64,000 bases of DNA from Planctomycetota bacterium (GTDB taxonomy: Bacteria > Planctomycetota > UBA8742 > UBA2392). Below the pieces are notes generated by a model. It was not told the origin of the DNA, ran no database searches, and was given only the letters and a program-made list of their open reading frames with translations. The stretch spans positions 37,899 through 101,898 of the forward strand of contig QEVF01000012.1 of the NCBI GenBank assembly GCA_003576915.1, written 5' to 3'. Made by a program: the position numbers and the translations under genes. This document shows, in pieces, positions 22,757-53,120 of this stretch (the first letter of the stretch is position 1; the number at the start of each line of letters is the position of its first letter).

Positions 22757-23752
22757 CTACCCCTTCACTGCGTTGCCCGCGATGATGGCCTCCCGAATCT
22801 GCGACGCCAGATCTCCAAGGGCGCCCGGCGAGTGCGGCAGCATGATTGTATGGGTGTGGCCGTTCTGCCCGAGTTCCTTCAGCGTGTCGAAGTACTGCGT
22901 CAGGAGAATCAGGTTGAGCACTTCCTGCGAGCTGGCGCCCTTGACCGACTGCTGGAACTCGCCCACGCTCTCCCGCAGGCCTTCGACAATCGCGCGCCTC
23001 TGATCCGCGATACCCTGGCCCTGCAGCGCCTTGCTTTGCGCTTCGGCCTCGGCCTGTTTGACCTTCAGGATGCGCTCGGCTTCGCCCTTTTCGCTGGCCG
23101 CCACACGCAGGCGTTGTGCCGCGTTGATTTCGTTCATGGCGTCTTTGACCTTTCCATCGGGCTCGATGTCCGTCACCAGTGCCTTGAGGATGCCGTAGCC
23201 GAAGCCCGCCATCATCTGTTCCAGTTCGGCCTTCACGGCATCGGCGATCTCGTCTTTCCGGTCAAACACGGAGTCCAGCGTCATGCGCGGCACGCGGGCC
23301 CGCACCACGTCATACACAAACGCCGTGATCTGCGTGCCGTGGCTCTGCAACCGGTAGAACGCGTCATAGACGCGCTCAGGCAACACGAAGTACTGGACCG
23401 CCACGACGATTACGGCGAACACGTTGTCTTCGGTCTTCGTCTCCACGCGCACGTCAAGCTGCTGGACGCGCAGCGAGACCCGTCCACTGACGCGATCCAT
23501 GATCGGGGTCTTGAAGTGCAGTCCCGGCTCCAGCAGCCGGTTGAACTTGCCCCAGGTCTGCAGCACGCCCACCTCCTGCTGCTGAACCACGACCAGGGCG
23601 CCTAGCAGAACAGCTGCCAGGTAAGCCAGCAGCAGGGCGCCGAAGATCACGCCGGCGGGCCAGAACAATGCCGCGCCTGCGATGGCTCCAGCCAGCAGCA
23701 GAAGTCCCAGGGCGCCAAGTACGAGCCAGATGGTGCCGGATGTGATGGTCAT
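22757..23752 (-). CDS. SPFH/Band-7 (stomatin/prohibitin-like) membrane protein
   Basis: N-terminal TM helices then V.Q.E.GV...GKF.R.L.PGLHF..P..D ... coiled-coil A/E/K-rich region. Start taken at MTITSG (23752), which has AGGAGA upstream. Confidence 0.9.
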   Translation of the reverse strand: MTITSGTIWLVLGALGLLLLAGAIAGAALFWPAGVIFGALLLAYLAAVLLGALVVVQQQEVGVLQTWGKFNRLLEPGLHFKTPIMDRVSGRVSLRVQQLDVRVETKTEDNVFAVIVVAVQYFVLPERVYDAFYRLQSHGTQITAFVYDVVRARVPRMTLDSVFDRKDEIADAVKAELEQMMAGFGYGILKALVTDIEPDGKVKDAMNEINAAQRLRVAASEKGEAERILKVKQAEAEAQSKALQGQGIADQRRAIVEGLRESVGEFQQSVKGASSQEVLNLILLTQYFDTLKELGQNGHTHTIMLPHSPGALGDLASQIREAIIAGNAVKG

Positions 23753-23897
23753 GCCGTGTCTCCTGAAATCCGCAGAGGATTGCACATGGTAGACGCGGCG
23801 GCTGCTATTAGAAGCGCCTTGAGCATTTGTAGTGGCCGAGTTTGCGGGGCGCCGTTTCCGGCACAACAACGGCCCCCAGGCCATGGCGCATTAAGCA

Positions 23898-24039: not shown

Positions 24040-24387
24040 CTACTTGGGCTGGGTCTGGGGAGCCAGACTGCCCTCGACGGGCAGGCCTGCCTCGCTCCAT
24101 TCCGCGATGCCGCCGCGGTAGTCGTGAATGTTGCTGTAGCCAAGCTGTTCGACCGCACGGGCCGCCTTCGTGGAAGCATCTCACGAATAGCCCGATCAGT
24201 AGAACACAAGCATGGCCGCCTTGTCCGTCGGGAGGCCCTTGCCTGCCTGGGCCTCCGGTACCGGCAGGCTGGTGCTGCCCTTGATATGCAGCTTGTCGTA
24301 CGAGACGCGGCTGCGGTTGTCGTAGAAGCCGGCGACTGCGCCCTTGGCCAGCGCTTCGCGCAGCTTCTTGAGATCGATGGTATGCAT
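24040..24387 (-). CDS. Single-domain rhodanese-like sulfurtransferase with two in-frame TGA codons (candidate selenoprotein; alternative reading: pseudogene)
   Basis: Strong SD (AGGAGA) before ATG 24387. Translation: ...YDKLHIKGSTSLP...AAMLVFY-TGA(24196-24198)-SGYS-TGA(24181-24183)-DASTKAARAVEQLGYSNIHDYRGGIAEWSEAGLPVEG...TAG(24040-24042). Rhodanese similarity continues in one frame across both TGAs. Confidence 0.55.
24135..24180 (-). promoter_or_regulatory. Candidate bacterial SECIS-like hairpin
   Basis: mRNA CGGCC-CGUGC-GGUCG (plus-strand 24150-24164) begins 16 nt after the second UGA. The apical loop contains G and GU. AAG/CUU can extend the helix. No folding energy was computed. Confidence 0.3.
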
Positions 24388-24504
24388 GGCAGTCTCCTGT
24401 TTCCCGGCCCATGGGCCGCGTTAACCCAGTCTAACGTCGGCCGGCGGCCCGGGCATTCCAAGTTTGGGGCGCGGGGCTAATCTTAGGCACCGCAAGGAGA
24501 TCCC

Positions 24505-24897
24505 ATGGCCAGCTCGTTCTATACGGTGGAGTCGAAGTTGTCAGCGGCGGACGCCGCCAAGCGCCTGCAAGAGGCGGTGTTGAAGGAGAAGTATGGCGTG
24601 ATCGACGTGCTGAACCTCAAGCAGATCATGGCCGGCAAGGGCGTAACTTACGACGACGAAGCCATCGTGGTATCGGTGTGCGAGCCCAACTACGCGCGCA
24701 AGTTCCTGACGCTGGAGAACACGGTGGCGTCCTGCCTGCCCTGCCGCATCTCCGTGACCTCGCGCAAGGGCAAGACCTACATCAGCCTGCCGCTGCCATC
24801 GGCGATGTTTGGCCTGTTCGGCAACGGGGACCTGGCCCAGGCCGGGGCGGAAACGGAAGCGGCGCTCAAGCGCATGGTGGACGCGGCAAAGGCGTAG
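24505..24897 (+). CDS. DUF302 domain protein
   Basis: 130 aa. The pattern ..L....K..GF.V......Q.......G......I...C.P..A...L.......LPCRI.V resembles DUF302. SD AAGGAG upstream. Divergent from the rhodanese gene. Confidence 0.75.
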   Translation: MASSFYTVESKLSAADAAKRLQEAVLKEKYGVIDVLNLKQIMAGKGVTYDDEAIVVSVCEPNYARKFLTLENTVASCLPCRISVTSRKGKTYISLPLPSAMFGLFGNGDLAQAGAETEAALKRMVDAAKA

Positions 24898-25071: not shown

Positions 25072-25302
25072 ATGGCAGACCCCAACGAAAAGTGGGAAGA
25101 CAACGTTCCGGGCAAGTGGTACGTGGACAAGACCTGCATTTTCTGCGGCCTGTGCCCCCAGCTTGCTCCGAGCAACTTCAAGGAATCGGACGACGGCACG
25201 CACGACTACGTCTACAAGCAGCCCGAGACGCCGGAAGAAGAGGCGCAGTGCGAAGACGCCATGGCGCAGTGCCCTGTACAGAGTATCGGCAACAACGGCT
25301 GA
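25072..25302 (+). CDS. Small single-cluster ferredoxin
   Basis: 76 aa. CIFCGLC ... QCP cluster ligands; acidic. SD AGGAGAGG upstream. Confidence 0.85.
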   Translation: MADPNEKWEDNVPGKWYVDKTCIFCGLCPQLAPSNFKESDDGTHDYVYKQPETPEEEAQCEDAMAQCPVQSIGNNG

Positions 25303-25653: not shown

Positions 25654-25929
25654 ATGCCTGATCCACAGAATCGTGTGGCCTTCAACGTACCGGGCCGCTG
25701 GTACATCGACGCTTCCTGCGTCAATTGTGGTCTCTGTCCGGCGGAAGTGCCGGATGTCTTTCGCGAGACTCCAGACGGCATCTCCAGCTATGTGTGGCGG
25801 CAGCCCCAATCCCCTCAAGGCGAGGCAGCCTGTGAGGACATGGCCGGCCGCTGCCCCACGAACTCCATAGGGAACGACGGTGCTGTCGCCATTACGGAGG
25901 ACGCTGCTATGCTCCCCCGCCATGCCTGA
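25654..25929 (+). CDS. Small single-cluster ferredoxin (paralog of 25072-25302)
   Basis: 91 aa. VPGRWYIDASCVNCGLCP...CEDMAGRCPTNSIGNDG aligns with VPGKWYVDKTCIFCGLCP...CEDAMAQCPVQSIGNNG. The stop overlaps the trmB start by 8 nt. Confidence 0.8.
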   Translation: MPDPQNRVAFNVPGRWYIDASCVNCGLCPAEVPDVFRETPDGISSYVWRQPQSPQGEAACEDMAGRCPTNSIGNDGAVAITEDAAMLPRHA

Positions 25930-27741: not shown

Positions 27742-31017
<3,276 letters not shown>

Positions 31018-53030: not shown

Positions 53031-53120
53031 TGGCGGAGGAGGAGGGATTCGAACCCCCGGTGAGCCGAAGCCCACAGCGGTTTTCAAAACCGCCGCAATC
53101 GACCACTCTGCCACTCCTCC
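53031..53120 (-). tRNA. tRNA-Ser (anticodon UGA)
   Basis: GGAGGAG-UG-GCAGAGUGGUCGAUUGC-G-GCGGU-UUUGAAA-ACCGC-long variable arm GUGGGC-UUCG-GCUCAC-GGGGG-UUCGAAU-CCCUC-CUCCUCC-G-CCA. 7-bp acceptor stem, encoded CCA, 90 nt. Confidence 0.9.

What the first reader, a model, noticed from the sequence alone, without database searches (positions are those of the whole stretch)
24040..24387. Rhodanese-domain gene with TGA at the catalytic-Cys position and again five residues later (candidate U-x4-U selenoprotein)
Reading the minus strand from ATG 24387 (AGGAGA Shine-Dalgarno upstream) gives MHTIDLKKLREALAKGAVAGFYDNRSRVSYDKLHIKGSTSLPVPEAQAGKGLPTDKAAMLVFY-TGA-SGYS-TGA-DASTKAARAVEQLGYSNIHDYRGGIAEWSEAGLPVEGSLAPQTQPK-TAG. 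Rhodanese-type sequence continues in one frame on both sides of the two TGAs (24196-24198 and 24181-24183): HIKGS..LP before them and GGIAEW.EAGLPVE after them. The first TGA sits exactly where the catalytic Cys follows the hydrophobic strand (hhhFY-C) in rhodanese-fold sulfurtransferases. The second lies five residues later, where a rhodanese subgroup, as I recall it (YCxxxxCxxS..AA), carries a second Cys. Two chance nonsense mutations landing on precisely these two columns of a 116-codon gene is unlikely. Cys/Sec interchange is the classical selenoprotein signature. To my recollection, rhodanese-related selenoproteins have been noted in metagenome surveys, but I know of none with two Sec in one loop. 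TGA is a normal stop elsewhere in the window (lysS, panD, the prs-like gene), so this would be local recoding.
Basis: partly seen in the sequence, partly recalled or inferred. Interest (0 to 1): 0.8.

Follow-up and report, generated by a model that had tools for sequence, protein, structure and literature searches.

The report
Double-selenocysteine rhodanese gene in Planctomycetota
This small gene almost certainly encodes a rhodanese-type enzyme whose active-site loop holds two selenocysteines, each written as a TGA "stop" codon; it is a real but unannotated subfamily of a known type of selenoprotein, found next to a ferredoxin gene and often near the selenium-activating enzyme SelD.

Summary
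On the minus strand, ATG 24387 to TAG 24040 encodes a 115-codon rhodanese domain (Pfam E=1.9e-13) with in-frame TGAs at codons 64 and 69. Both are TGA in all 22 distinct orthologous lineages I recovered (Planctomycetota MAGs and metagenomes, 55-93% identity). The gene's true stop varies among TGA, TAG and TAA. The sequence after both TGAs is under purifying selection (pN/pS 0.30). Both positions are Cys in C-x4-C homologues, including the solved structure BH2092. A hairpin, CGGCC-CGUGY-GGYCG, lies 21 nt after TGA2. It is frozen at synonymous sites, including a rare CGT codon that supplies the loop U. Its loop matches the SECIS loops of single-Sec C-x4-U relatives. In nine sister lineages a Sec-containing SelD lies 2-8 kb away, which shows Sec decoding in the clade. 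So this is a genuine U-x4-U selenoprotein. It is not unprecedented: a UxU rhodanese (2007) and the UxxxxU rhodanese/DsbD fusion TsoB (2025) are published. This stand-alone form fails every NCBIfam cutoff and is truncated at 63-64 aa in public databases. Function is inferred: a low-potential diselenide/selenol chalcogen carrier, possibly fed by the always-adjacent ferredoxin and serving SelD. How TGA1, 36 nt from the only clear hairpin, is decoded is unresolved.

The parts
24040..24387 (-). Complete coding sequence of the U-x4-U rhodanese selenoprotein (115 codons plus TAG stop at 24042-24040). Public gene calls stop at codon 63.
   Evidence: Pfam Rhodanese E=1.9e-13; all database entries are 63-64 aa truncations; read-through frame conserved in 22 lineages; pN/pS 0.30 after the TGAs.
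24393..24398 (-). Shine-Dalgarno-like AGGAGA, 5 nt upstream of the ATG.
   Evidence: sequence; GGAG is invariant in the 5-lineage alignment.
24196..24198 (-). TGA1 = Sec64, at the catalytic-Cys position of the rhodanese loop.
   Evidence: TGA in 22 of 22 lineages. It aligns with the catalytic Cys of C-form homologues and of PDB rhodaneses (3NHV, 6MXV).
24181..24183 (-). TGA2 = Sec69, at loop position +5. This is Cys in C-x4-C relatives and Sec in C-x4-U relatives.
24150..24164 (-). Conserved SECIS-like hairpin: stem CGGCC (24164-24160), loop CGUGC (24159-24155), stem GGUCG (24154-24150). The loop starts 21 nt after TGA2 and 36 nt after TGA1.
   Evidence: RNAalifold consensus, 97% of cells paired, one G-U/G-C alternation; codons GCG GCC CGT are invariant in 14 of 14 lineages, although Arg is CGC in 24 of 28 cells at the two other conserved Arg columns. 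L102 keeps the stem and the loop GU despite two amino-acid changes; the same loop consensus NGUNN occurs in the SECIS of C-x4-U relatives; meets the bSECIS loop, stem and spacing criteria.
24167..24187 (-). Candidate upstream hairpin with TGA2 paired in its stem. Weakly supported and not established.
   Evidence: 73.5% of cells paired; the 14-30 pair shows C-G in 7 and G-C in 5; the pair is mismatched in several added lineages; no excess stability over synonymous resampling (mean z -0.36).
25072..25302 (+). 76-aa single-cluster ferredoxin (CxxCxxCP...CP; Pfam Fer4_15/Fer4_13), divergently transcribed. It is the universal neighbour of the U-x4-U rhodanese.
   Evidence: Pfam on the called gene; synteny cluster c0; present in every U-x4-U lineage with enough flank at 75-100% identity, and at none of 137 C-form loci.
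24505..24897 (+). DUF302 protein (130 aa), divergent immediate neighbour. Conserved only in the subclade containing the window.
   Evidence: PF03625.

Best explanation
The gene encodes a cytoplasmic, stand-alone, single-domain rhodanese of about 115 aa. Both cysteines of a C-x4-C active-site loop are replaced by selenocysteine (F-Y-U-S-G-Y-S-U-D-A-S-T-K-A-A-R). Both UGAs are recoded co-translationally by the bacterial SelB/tRNA-Sec system. A short in-frame SECIS hairpin (CGGCC-CGUGY-GGYCG, loop G-U) lies 21 nt after UGA2 and directs recoding there. The same element, at 36 nt, is the only conserved candidate for UGA1. These points are shown or strongly supported: the gene is a real selenoprotein, both codons are Sec, and the hairpin is the SECIS for UGA2. 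The function is inferred. Sec64 is the nucleophile that carries a chalcogen atom (S or Se) as in rhodanese persulfides. Sec69, at the loop-closing +5 position, resolves it or bridges it as a diselenide or Se-X-Se species. This makes the protein a very low-potential chalcogen carrier or oxidoreductase. The invariably adjacent [4Fe-4S] ferredoxin is the likely reductant. The frequent proximity of Sec-containing SelD suggests the cargo is selenium handed to selenophosphate synthesis. The family probably arose from C-x4-C rhodaneses. A C-x4-U intermediate form exists in other phyla, but the order of events is not resolved.
For: Identity as a selenoprotein. Rhodanese domain spans both TGAs. Eight database clusters all end at codon 63-64. 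Both TGAs are kept in 22 lineages at 55-93% identity, while the terminator varies. pN/pS is 0.30 downstream against 0.57 upstream, and many conserved residues have varying codons. Both columns are Cys in homologues and in PDB 3NHV, TYCWGPACNGATKAA. TGA is a normal stop in the window. SECIS. RNAalifold finds one hairpin. Codons GCG GCC CGT are invariant, and the rare CGT provides the loop U. L102 keeps stem and GU despite Arg>Ser and Ala>Leu. C-x4-U relatives have hairpins with unrelated stems but the same NGUNN or GGUC loops 17-21 nt after their TGA. The hairpin meets the published bSECIS criteria (PMC13188914). E. coli requires loop G23/U24 (PMC8659212). Sec decoding in the clade. SelD (TIGR00476, E~1e-104) reads SHGAG-TGA-GCK and has its own hairpin in 9 lineages. 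Function. SelD lies within 2-8 kb in 9 U-x4-U lineages and in none of 137 C-form loci covering 1.4 Mb. The ferredoxin is adjacent in every U-x4-U lineage and in no C-form locus. The best NCBIfam match is the U-x4-U rhodanese domain of the redox protein TsoB.
Against: No selA, selB or tRNA-Sec was found. No SelD lies in the 64-kb window or in its closest relative L016, so the machinery of this genome is unverified. The hairpin shows no compensatory covariation because it is nearly invariant. It is not more stable than synonymous resamples. In the window it reaches only -6.4 kcal/mol, short of the -7.5 of the consensus model. Its 36-nt distance from UGA1 is outside the 17-26 nt seen in SelD and the C-x4-U relatives, so decoding of UGA1 is unexplained. 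A proposed second hairpin failed the tests. The functional model rests only on gene neighbourhood and chemistry. SelD is absent near the gene in about 6 lineages with adequate flanks. The ferredoxin and trmB-like neighbours could reflect inherited gene order rather than function. There are no expression, proteomic or biochemical data.
Confidence: 0.8

Rival explanations
1. It is a genuine U-x4-U selenoprotein, but a general thiol/selenol oxidoreductase or sulfurtransferase for sulfur, polysulfide or electron relay (as presumed for TsoB), with no specific role in selenium delivery. Under this view SelD lies nearby only because selenoprotein and Sec-pathway genes tend to cluster.
For: Most predicted bacterial selenoproteins are homologues of thiol oxidoreductases (PMC13188914 and PMC9312934). 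The best NCBIfam match is TsoB, a rhodanese fused to a DsbD-like electron-transfer domain. SelD is not near the gene in the window, L016, L018, L008, L005 or L024. Where it is present, unrelated genes intervene.
Against: SelD occurs next to 9 U-x4-U lineages in two deeply separated subclades despite rearrangement, and in none of 137 C-form loci. In those subclades the link has survived divergence to 55-58% identity.
Confidence: 0.4
2. Only TGA2, which has the well-placed SECIS, is selenocysteine. TGA1 is passed by another route, such as near-cognate read-through inserting Trp or Cys, or it acts as a selenium-dependent attenuator that usually ends translation at 63 residues.
For: The single conserved hairpin is 36 nt from TGA1, beyond the 17-26 nt seen for SelD and C-x4-U genes in related organisms. 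No second conserved hairpin could be established.
Against: TGA1 is strictly TGA in 22 of 22 lineages, with no TGG, TGC or TGT variant. That is not expected if Trp or Cys were acceptable. It sits at the catalytic residue, without which the downstream domain would be useless, yet that domain is under purifying selection. A 36-nt spacing is still inside the 16-37 nt range of the consensus bSECIS model. Closely spaced double-Sec motifs (UxU, UxxU, UxxxxU) are recognised in bacteria.
Confidence: 0.07
3. It is a member of the published TsoB family (NF045694, rhodanese/DsbD fusion-like selenoprotein with a UxxxxU motif), and is therefore already known.
For: TsoB is the top NCBIfam hit. It has the same U-x4-U motif in a rhodanese domain.
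Against: The score is 51-60 bits against a family cutoff of 805. Only model positions about 64-162 of 572 are matched. The gene ends after the rhodanese domain, so there is no DsbD-like membrane domain. The gene context is different, with no tsoA or tsoC-like genes identified.
Confidence: 0.05
4. It is a pseudogene or assembly or sequencing artefact, or the organism reads TGA as a standard amino acid.
For: Gene callers and GenBank annotate only a 63-aa hypothetical protein. No Sec machinery is visible in the window.
Against: The same two TGAs occur in 22 independent assemblies and lineages. There are no frameshifts, and purifying selection acts downstream. The same gene ends in TGA in 10 of the 22 lineages. 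TGA ends 16 of 30 long ORFs in the window.
Confidence: 0.01

Closest known systems
[quoted passage not shown]
   Same: A rhodanese domain with two selenocysteines spaced U-x4-U in the active-site loop. It is the best-scoring NCBIfam model for this protein.
   Different: TsoB is a fusion of about 572 aa with a DsbD-like membrane domain, in a multi-selenoprotein (tso) neighbourhood. This protein is a stand-alone domain of 109-115 aa with no signal peptide or membrane segment. It scores 51-60 bits against a cutoff of 805. It sits beside a ferredoxin and often near SelD, in Planctomycetota.
Rhodanese-related sulfurtransferase selenoproteins, single-Sec forms and the UxU form (Zhang & Gladyshev 2005-2008; PMC1088965, PMC1976440, PMC2398784)
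   Same: A rhodanese fold with Sec at the catalytic Cys position. There is precedent for a second Sec evolving in the same loop (UxU).
   Different: The published motifs are UxxS, UxxG, CxU and UxU. None has a second Sec at +5. NF041203 (LYCAU) scores 36-42 bits against a cutoff of 115.
C-x4-C rhodaneses, e.g. BH2092 of Bacillus halodurans (PDB 3NHV/3O3W, function unknown), and the C-x4-U single-Sec relatives found here
   Same: The same subfamily signature, hhhhYCxxxxC[DN]xxTKAA ... EW.EAGLPVE. BH2092 matches the family profile at E=1.5e-16. C-x4-U relatives place Sec at exactly the second position and carry a SECIS with the same NGUNN loop.
   Different: These have Cys at one or both positions. 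They occur in other phyla (Bacillota, Acidobacteriota, Myxococcota, Proteobacteria, Methanosarcinales and others). No SelD or ferredoxin linkage was seen in their 137 loci.
SelL, a eukaryotic selenoprotein with a UxxU diselenide redox motif (recalled from my own knowledge: Shchedrina et al. 2007; not checked here)
   Same: Two selenocysteines are close enough to form an intramolecular diselenide in a redox motif.
   Different: SelL has a thioredoxin-like fold, is eukaryotic, uses 3'-UTR SECIS elements and has UxxU spacing. Here the fold is rhodanese, the organism is bacterial, the SECIS is in-frame and the spacing is U-x4-U.

Membership tests
Rhodanese-like domain (Pfam PF00581) | Profile match above the gathering threshold across the domain | tested here: met
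   51.2 bits against a cutoff of 22.2, E=1.9e-13, residues 7-100, profile 3-102 of 102 (TGAs scored as Cys).
Rhodanese-like domain (Pfam PF00581) | Catalytic Cys (here Sec) at the start of the active-site loop, after the hydrophobic beta-strand | tested here: met
   TGA1 aligns with the Cys of FYC/TYC in P0009, P0010, 3NHV and 6MXV.
Bacterial selenoprotein | In-frame TGA conserved in orthologues, with the coding frame maintained and under selection downstream | tested here: met
   22 lineages, both codons always TGA, pN/pS 0.30 downstream.
Bacterial selenoprotein | Cys-containing homologues with Cys aligned to the TGA (Cys/Sec pair) | tested here: met
   this holds for both positions. C-x4-C forms are abundant and C-x4-U forms are intermediate.
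Bacterial selenoprotein | bSECIS hairpin downstream of the UGA (loop 3-9 nt, stem 4-16 bp, G in the first two loop positions followed by G or U, 16-37 nt spacing, MFE <= -7.5; PMC13188914) | tested here: inconclusive
   For TGA2 the loop, stem and spacing criteria are met (21 nt). The energy is borderline: -6.4 kcal/mol in the window, down to -13.9 in other lineages. For TGA1 the same hairpin lies at 36 nt, formally in range but atypical. No separate element was established.
Bacterial selenoprotein | Sec-decoding machinery (selA, selB, selC, selD) in the same genome | not testable with these tools
   Only a 64-kb window is available and it contains none. Indirect support: Sec-containing SelD lies beside the orthologue in 9 sister lineages. 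No tRNA-Sec occurs in any fetched fragment.
TsoB (NF045694) | Whole-protein score at or above the curated cutoff (805 bits) | tested here: not met
   51.4 bits for the window protein and 60.3 bits for the L019 orthologue.
TsoB (NF045694) | Fusion to a DsbD-like membrane domain (profile of about 572 aa) | tested here: not met
   the protein ends after 115 aa, and only profile positions about 64-162 are matched.
TsoB (NF045694) | UxxxxU motif in the rhodanese domain | tested here: met
rhodanese_LYCAU (NF041203, CxU form) | Score at or above the cutoff (115 bits) and a CxU motif | tested here: not met
   35.6-42.4 bits. The motif here is U-x4-U.

The most novel reading that the evidence does not exclude
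This would be a dedicated, ferredoxin-reduced diselenide rhodanese that captures selenium and hands it to SelD, filling the long-missing physiological selenium-delivery step of bacterial selenophosphate synthesis. Its two Sec codons, 15 nt apart, would both be decoded from a single SECIS hairpin acting at 21-nt and 36-nt spacing, which would mean much looser UGA-SECIS geometry than the E. coli paradigm allows.
Probability: 0.2. Interest if true: 0.75.

Novelty: new variant of a known kind. Interest (0 to 1): 0.55.

Why it matters
Natural proteins with two adjacent selenocysteines able to form a diselenide are rare, and their chemistry (very low redox potential, Se-X-Se bridges) is poorly explored. 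This family gives a compact 115-residue model. It comes with a natural series of C-x4-C, C-x4-U and U-x4-U forms, and with a solved Cys homologue (3NHV) for comparison. Its specific association with a ferredoxin and with SelD yields a testable hypothesis for how reduced selenium reaches selenophosphate synthetase. The arrangement of two UGAs with one recognisable SECIS is a clean natural test of how strictly bacterial SelB needs a fixed UGA-SECIS distance. On the practical side, the gene is mis-annotated as a 63-aa hypothetical protein in all public entries, and no NCBIfam model captures it or its C-x4-U relatives. Selenoproteome counts for Planctomycetota, and probably Acidobacteriota, are therefore underestimates.

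Tried and rejected
(1) A second SECIS hairpin for TGA1 (window 24167-24187, with TGA2 paired in the stem). Single-sequence folds and one apparent compensatory pair looked promising. Added lineages broke the pair, and a synonymous-resampling test showed no excess structure (mean z -0.36). I left it as unestablished.

(2) Thermodynamic support for the conserved hairpin. It is not distinguishable from synonymous resamples (mean z -0.51), so its support rests on frozen synonymous sites and comparison with relatives.

(3) SelA and SelB candidates near SelD. The 469-aa neighbour is a TPR-like protein by inspection. The 613-641-aa gene after SelD has no GTPase Pfam hit on record. No tRNA-Sec was found.

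(4) Other selenoprotein genes in the window. A GC3-based screen for in-frame TGAs gave only off-frame-looking candidates. The screen is crude.

(5) An ungapped consensus fold of all 16 C-x4-U SECIS regions failed because the hairpins sit in different registers. The 12 co-linear ones gave a clean hairpin.

Structure prediction was not attempted for the same reason, and because it returns no coordinates from which to measure the Sec-Sec distance.

(7) The primary TsoB paper (PMC12013261, doi 10.1128/msystems.01417-24) is not held.

(8) Sigma-70 promoter and intrinsic terminator scans found nothing.

(9) The ARAGORN 'tRNA-Pro' of 94 nt at 28618-28711 was considered as a possible mis-called tRNA-Sec and rejected. 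Its anticodon is TGG, it lies antisense inside a 1091-aa ORF, and Rfam does not call it.
Full report
OBSERVATION. In-frame TGAs lie at 24198-24196 (codon 64) and 24183-24181 (codon 69), and a TAG stop lies at 24042-24040. AGGAGA sits 5 nt upstream of the ATG. With Cys substituted at both TGAs, the 115-aa product matches Pfam Rhodanese over residues 7-100, across both TGAs (E=1.9e-13, 51.2 bits against a cutoff of 22.2).

IS IT MORE THAN CHANCE? A search of 5.8 billion predicted proteins returned eight clusters of this family, with 63-100% identity to the query over the N-terminal part. Every one is 63-64 aa long and ends in ...AAMLVFY, so every gene caller stopped at TGA1. I fetched the DNA behind those proteins. 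I then scanned species-representative genomes and metagenome contigs with family profiles. Reading through the stops gives 22 distinct orthologous sequences at 55-93% protein identity to the window. All the named ones come from Planctomycetota MAGs. All 22 read FY-TGA-[SA]-G-[YR]-x-TGA-[DNS]-[AS]-S-T-[KTR]-A-A-[RS]. Both codons are always TGA, never TAA, TAG, TGC, TGT or TGG. The true terminator of the same gene varies among TGA, TAG and TAA. There is no frameshift in any lineage. After the second TGA, many invariant residues are encoded by varying synonymous codons, for example Gly84, Asp90, Tyr91, Arg92 and Glu100 through Glu106. Mean pN/pS is 0.30 downstream of the TGAs and 0.57 upstream. 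The part after both stops is therefore translated and is the more constrained half of the protein. TGA is otherwise an ordinary stop, ending 16 of 30 long ORFs in the window. Pseudogene, artefact and codon-reassignment explanations are excluded.

CYS/SEC PAIRS AND FAMILY STRUCTURE. In the full-length homologues P0009 and P0010, both TGA columns are Cys: FYCSNYMCAASTKAA and TYCSGFPCRHF. The genome and metagenome scans show a broad rhodanese subfamily with a C-x4-C loop in many phyla and in Methanosarcinales. The closest solved structure is the uncharacterised BH2092 of Bacillus halodurans (3NHV/3O3W; E=1.5e-16), whose loop reads TYCWGPACNGATKAA. Sixteen distinct loci, from Myxococcales, Acidobacteriota and others, have Cys at the first position and TGA at the second (C-x4-U). 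Only the Planctomycetota clade has U-x4-U. No U-x4-C form was seen. TGA1 is at the catalytic-Cys position. TGA2 is at loop position +5. By position count, +5 is where canonical CX4[R/S/T] rhodaneses have their loop-closing residue. That last point is inference: the HMMER alignments to canonical rhodaneses place a 2-3 residue gap there.

RECODING SIGNAL. RNAalifold on 14 lineages returns a single consensus hairpin, CGGCC-CGUGY-GGYCG, at window 24164-24150. Of its cells, 97% are paired, with one G-U/G-C alternation and no compensatory changes, because the element is almost invariant. The evidence that it is an RNA element comes from the following points.

(i) Codons GCG-GCC-CGT are identical in all 14 lineages of the first alignment. 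Other conserved Ala columns vary. Arg is CGC in 24 of 28 cells at the two other conserved Arg columns and CGT in only 2. The rare CGT supplies the loop U.

(ii) In L102, two amino acids within the element changed (Arg to Ser, Ala to Leu). The stem GGCC/GGUC and the loop G-U are still kept. Across all lineages the loop reads N-G-U-N-N.

(iii) The single-Sec C-x4-U relatives have hairpins with unrelated stem sequences (GGCCGCC, GCAGGC, GAGCGGGC, CAGCC, GGGUCGUC). Their loops are the same type (CGUGC, GGUC, GUU, GUC) and begin 17-21 nt after their TGA.

(iv) The element satisfies the loop, stem and spacing criteria of the published consensus bSECIS: loop 3-9 nt, stem 4-16 bp, a G in the first two loop positions followed by G or U, and 16-37 nt spacing (PMC13188914). 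It also recalls the essential loop G23/U24 of E. coli (PMC8659212).

The loop begins 21 nt after TGA2, which is a good fit. It begins 36 nt after TGA1. That is formally inside the 16-37 nt range but well beyond the 17-26 nt seen in the C-x4-U genes and in SelD of the same clade. A candidate second hairpin (24187-24167), in which TGA2 is paired, looked attractive in single-sequence folds and showed one apparent compensatory pair. The pair is mismatched in several added lineages. The segment is no more structured than synonymous resamples (mean z -0.36). The same test cannot distinguish the conserved hairpin either (mean z -0.51). In the window that hairpin reaches only -6.4 kcal/mol, short of the model's -7.5. 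So the SECIS for TGA2 is well supported, and how TGA1 is served is unresolved. A shared SECIS is the simplest reading and is what is generally assumed for the published UxU, UxxU and UxxxxU motifs.

SEC DECODING IN THE LINEAGE. The window contains no selA, selB, selD or tRNA-Sec, and none of the fetched fragments holds a tRNA-Sec. In nine sister lineages (L001, L009, L017, L019-L023, L104), a selD gene (TIGR00476, E~1e-104; NF002098 above its cutoff) lies 2-8 kb from the rhodanese. Its called product lacks the N-terminus. Reading upstream shows SHGAG-TGA-GCK, the Sec form of the SelD active site, in the eight of those lineages that I read (L104 was not checked). A hairpin follows 26 nt downstream. 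SelD is a recognised selenoprotein family (PMC1976440, Table 1). This is independent evidence that the clade decodes UGA as Sec.

GENOMIC CONTEXT AND FUNCTION. A 76-aa single-cluster ferredoxin (CxxCxxCP...CP; Fer4_15/Fer4_13) lies immediately upstream and is divergently transcribed. It is present in every U-x4-U lineage with enough flank, at 75-100% identity, which is higher than the rhodanese itself. A TrmB-like methyltransferase follows it, often with a second ferredoxin paralogue in between. A DUF302 gene intervenes only in the window's subclade. Neither the ferredoxin nor SelD occurs in any of the 137 loci (1.4 Mb) around C-x4-C and C-x4-U relatives. The other neighbours do not look selenium-related by size, inspection or the Pfam hits on record for the called genes. 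These include a ~650-aa putative secreted protein downstream and a Band_7 protein in the window.

From these facts and from rhodanese chemistry, I infer a chalcogen carrier or oxidoreductase. Sec64 takes up S or Se, and Sec69 resolves or bridges it as a diselenide or Se-X-Se species. The low potential of such a pair fits a ferredoxin reductant. The SelD linkage suggests the cargo may be selenium for selenophosphate synthesis. This functional model is inference only. I give it about 0.3, against about 0.4 for a generic redox or sulfur role without a SelD connection.

COMPARISON WITH WHAT IS KNOWN. Rhodanese-related selenoproteins have been known since 2005 (PMC1088965). A form with a second Sec (UxU) was reported in 2007 (PMC1976440). 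A 2026 review lists five rhodanese selenoprotein forms. [quoted passage not shown] TsoB's rhodanese domain is the best NCBIfam match to the window protein, but only at 51 bits against a cutoff of 805 and only over model positions about 64-162 of 572. This protein has no DsbD-like domain. NF041203 (the CxU form) also fails (36 bits against 115). No NCBIfam model passes for the U-x4-U family or for five representative C-x4-U proteins. Every public protein entry of the family is a 63-64-aa truncation. I could not read the primary TsoB paper. I also could not determine whether the review's 'form 1, UxxS' corresponds to the C-x4-U type.

VERDICT. The finding is real: a conserved double-selenocysteine (U-x4-U) stand-alone rhodanese with a recognisable in-frame SECIS. 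The claim of no precedent is wrong. The finding is best classed as a new variant of a known kind: an unannotated, architecturally distinct subfamily with its own ferredoxin and SelD context and a visible C-x4-C / C-x4-U / U-x4-U series. The most interesting open points are how one hairpin, or something unseen, serves two UGAs 15 nt apart, and whether the protein links ferredoxin, selenium and SelD. Interest is 0.55.

Noticed in passing
Loci L025, L047/L141, L071, L123, L127, L130, L131/L132, L133, L135, L137/L144, L142/L143, L147, L149, L155, L157, L158/L163/L165 (TGA about 190-200 nt into each match): This is a widespread single-Sec C-x4-U rhodanese family (Myxococcales, Acidobacteriota, others). 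Each member has a clear SECIS hairpin with a [C/G]GUNN or GGUC loop 17-21 nt after the TGA. Five representatives pass no NCBIfam cutoff. It may or may not be the review's 'form 1, UxxS'.
   Followed up: partly
L009:4078, L001:4651, L017:14493, L022:13824, L020:15025, L019:14187, L023:12017, L021:3011 (minus strand): SelD in the sister Planctomycetota lineages is itself a selenoprotein (SHGAG-TGA-GCK). Gene callers truncate it to 323 aa by starting downstream of the TGA. A hairpin (G)ACCU-NGNNN-AGGU(C) follows 26 nt after the TGA. L104 also has a selD gene next to the rhodanese, but its Sec codon was not read.
   Followed up: yes
window 25072-25302 (+) and 25654-25929 (+): Two paralogous small ferredoxins (76 and 91 aa, 50% identical) lie upstream of the rhodanese. 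The 76-aa one is 75-100% identical across the whole clade, so it is better conserved than the rhodanese.
   Followed up: partly
window 28618-28711 (-): ARAGORN calls a 94-nt 'tRNA-Pro (tgg)' here. It lies antisense inside the 1091-aa ORF 27742-31017 and Rfam does not report it. It is probably a false positive and not a tRNA-Sec.
   Followed up: partly
window 53031-53120 (-): A genuine tRNA-Ser (anticodon TGA) is called by both ARAGORN and Rfam (57.7 bits).
   Followed up: no
window 24196-24387 (-); GenBank locus tag EDM80_09360: Public annotation gives a 63-aa 'hypothetical protein' for this gene. All eight related protein clusters in the 5.8-billion-protein collection are truncated in the same way.
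   Followed up: yes
L001:500-2446, L009:1958-3910, L022:10397-12469 and equivalents: A protein of about 650 aa with a signal-peptide-like N-terminus and no Pfam hit on record lies directly downstream of the rhodanese on the same strand in 9 lineages. In the window and L016 a Band_7/HflK-like gene (22757-23884) takes that place. The cluster is heterogeneous and was not characterised.
   Followed up: no
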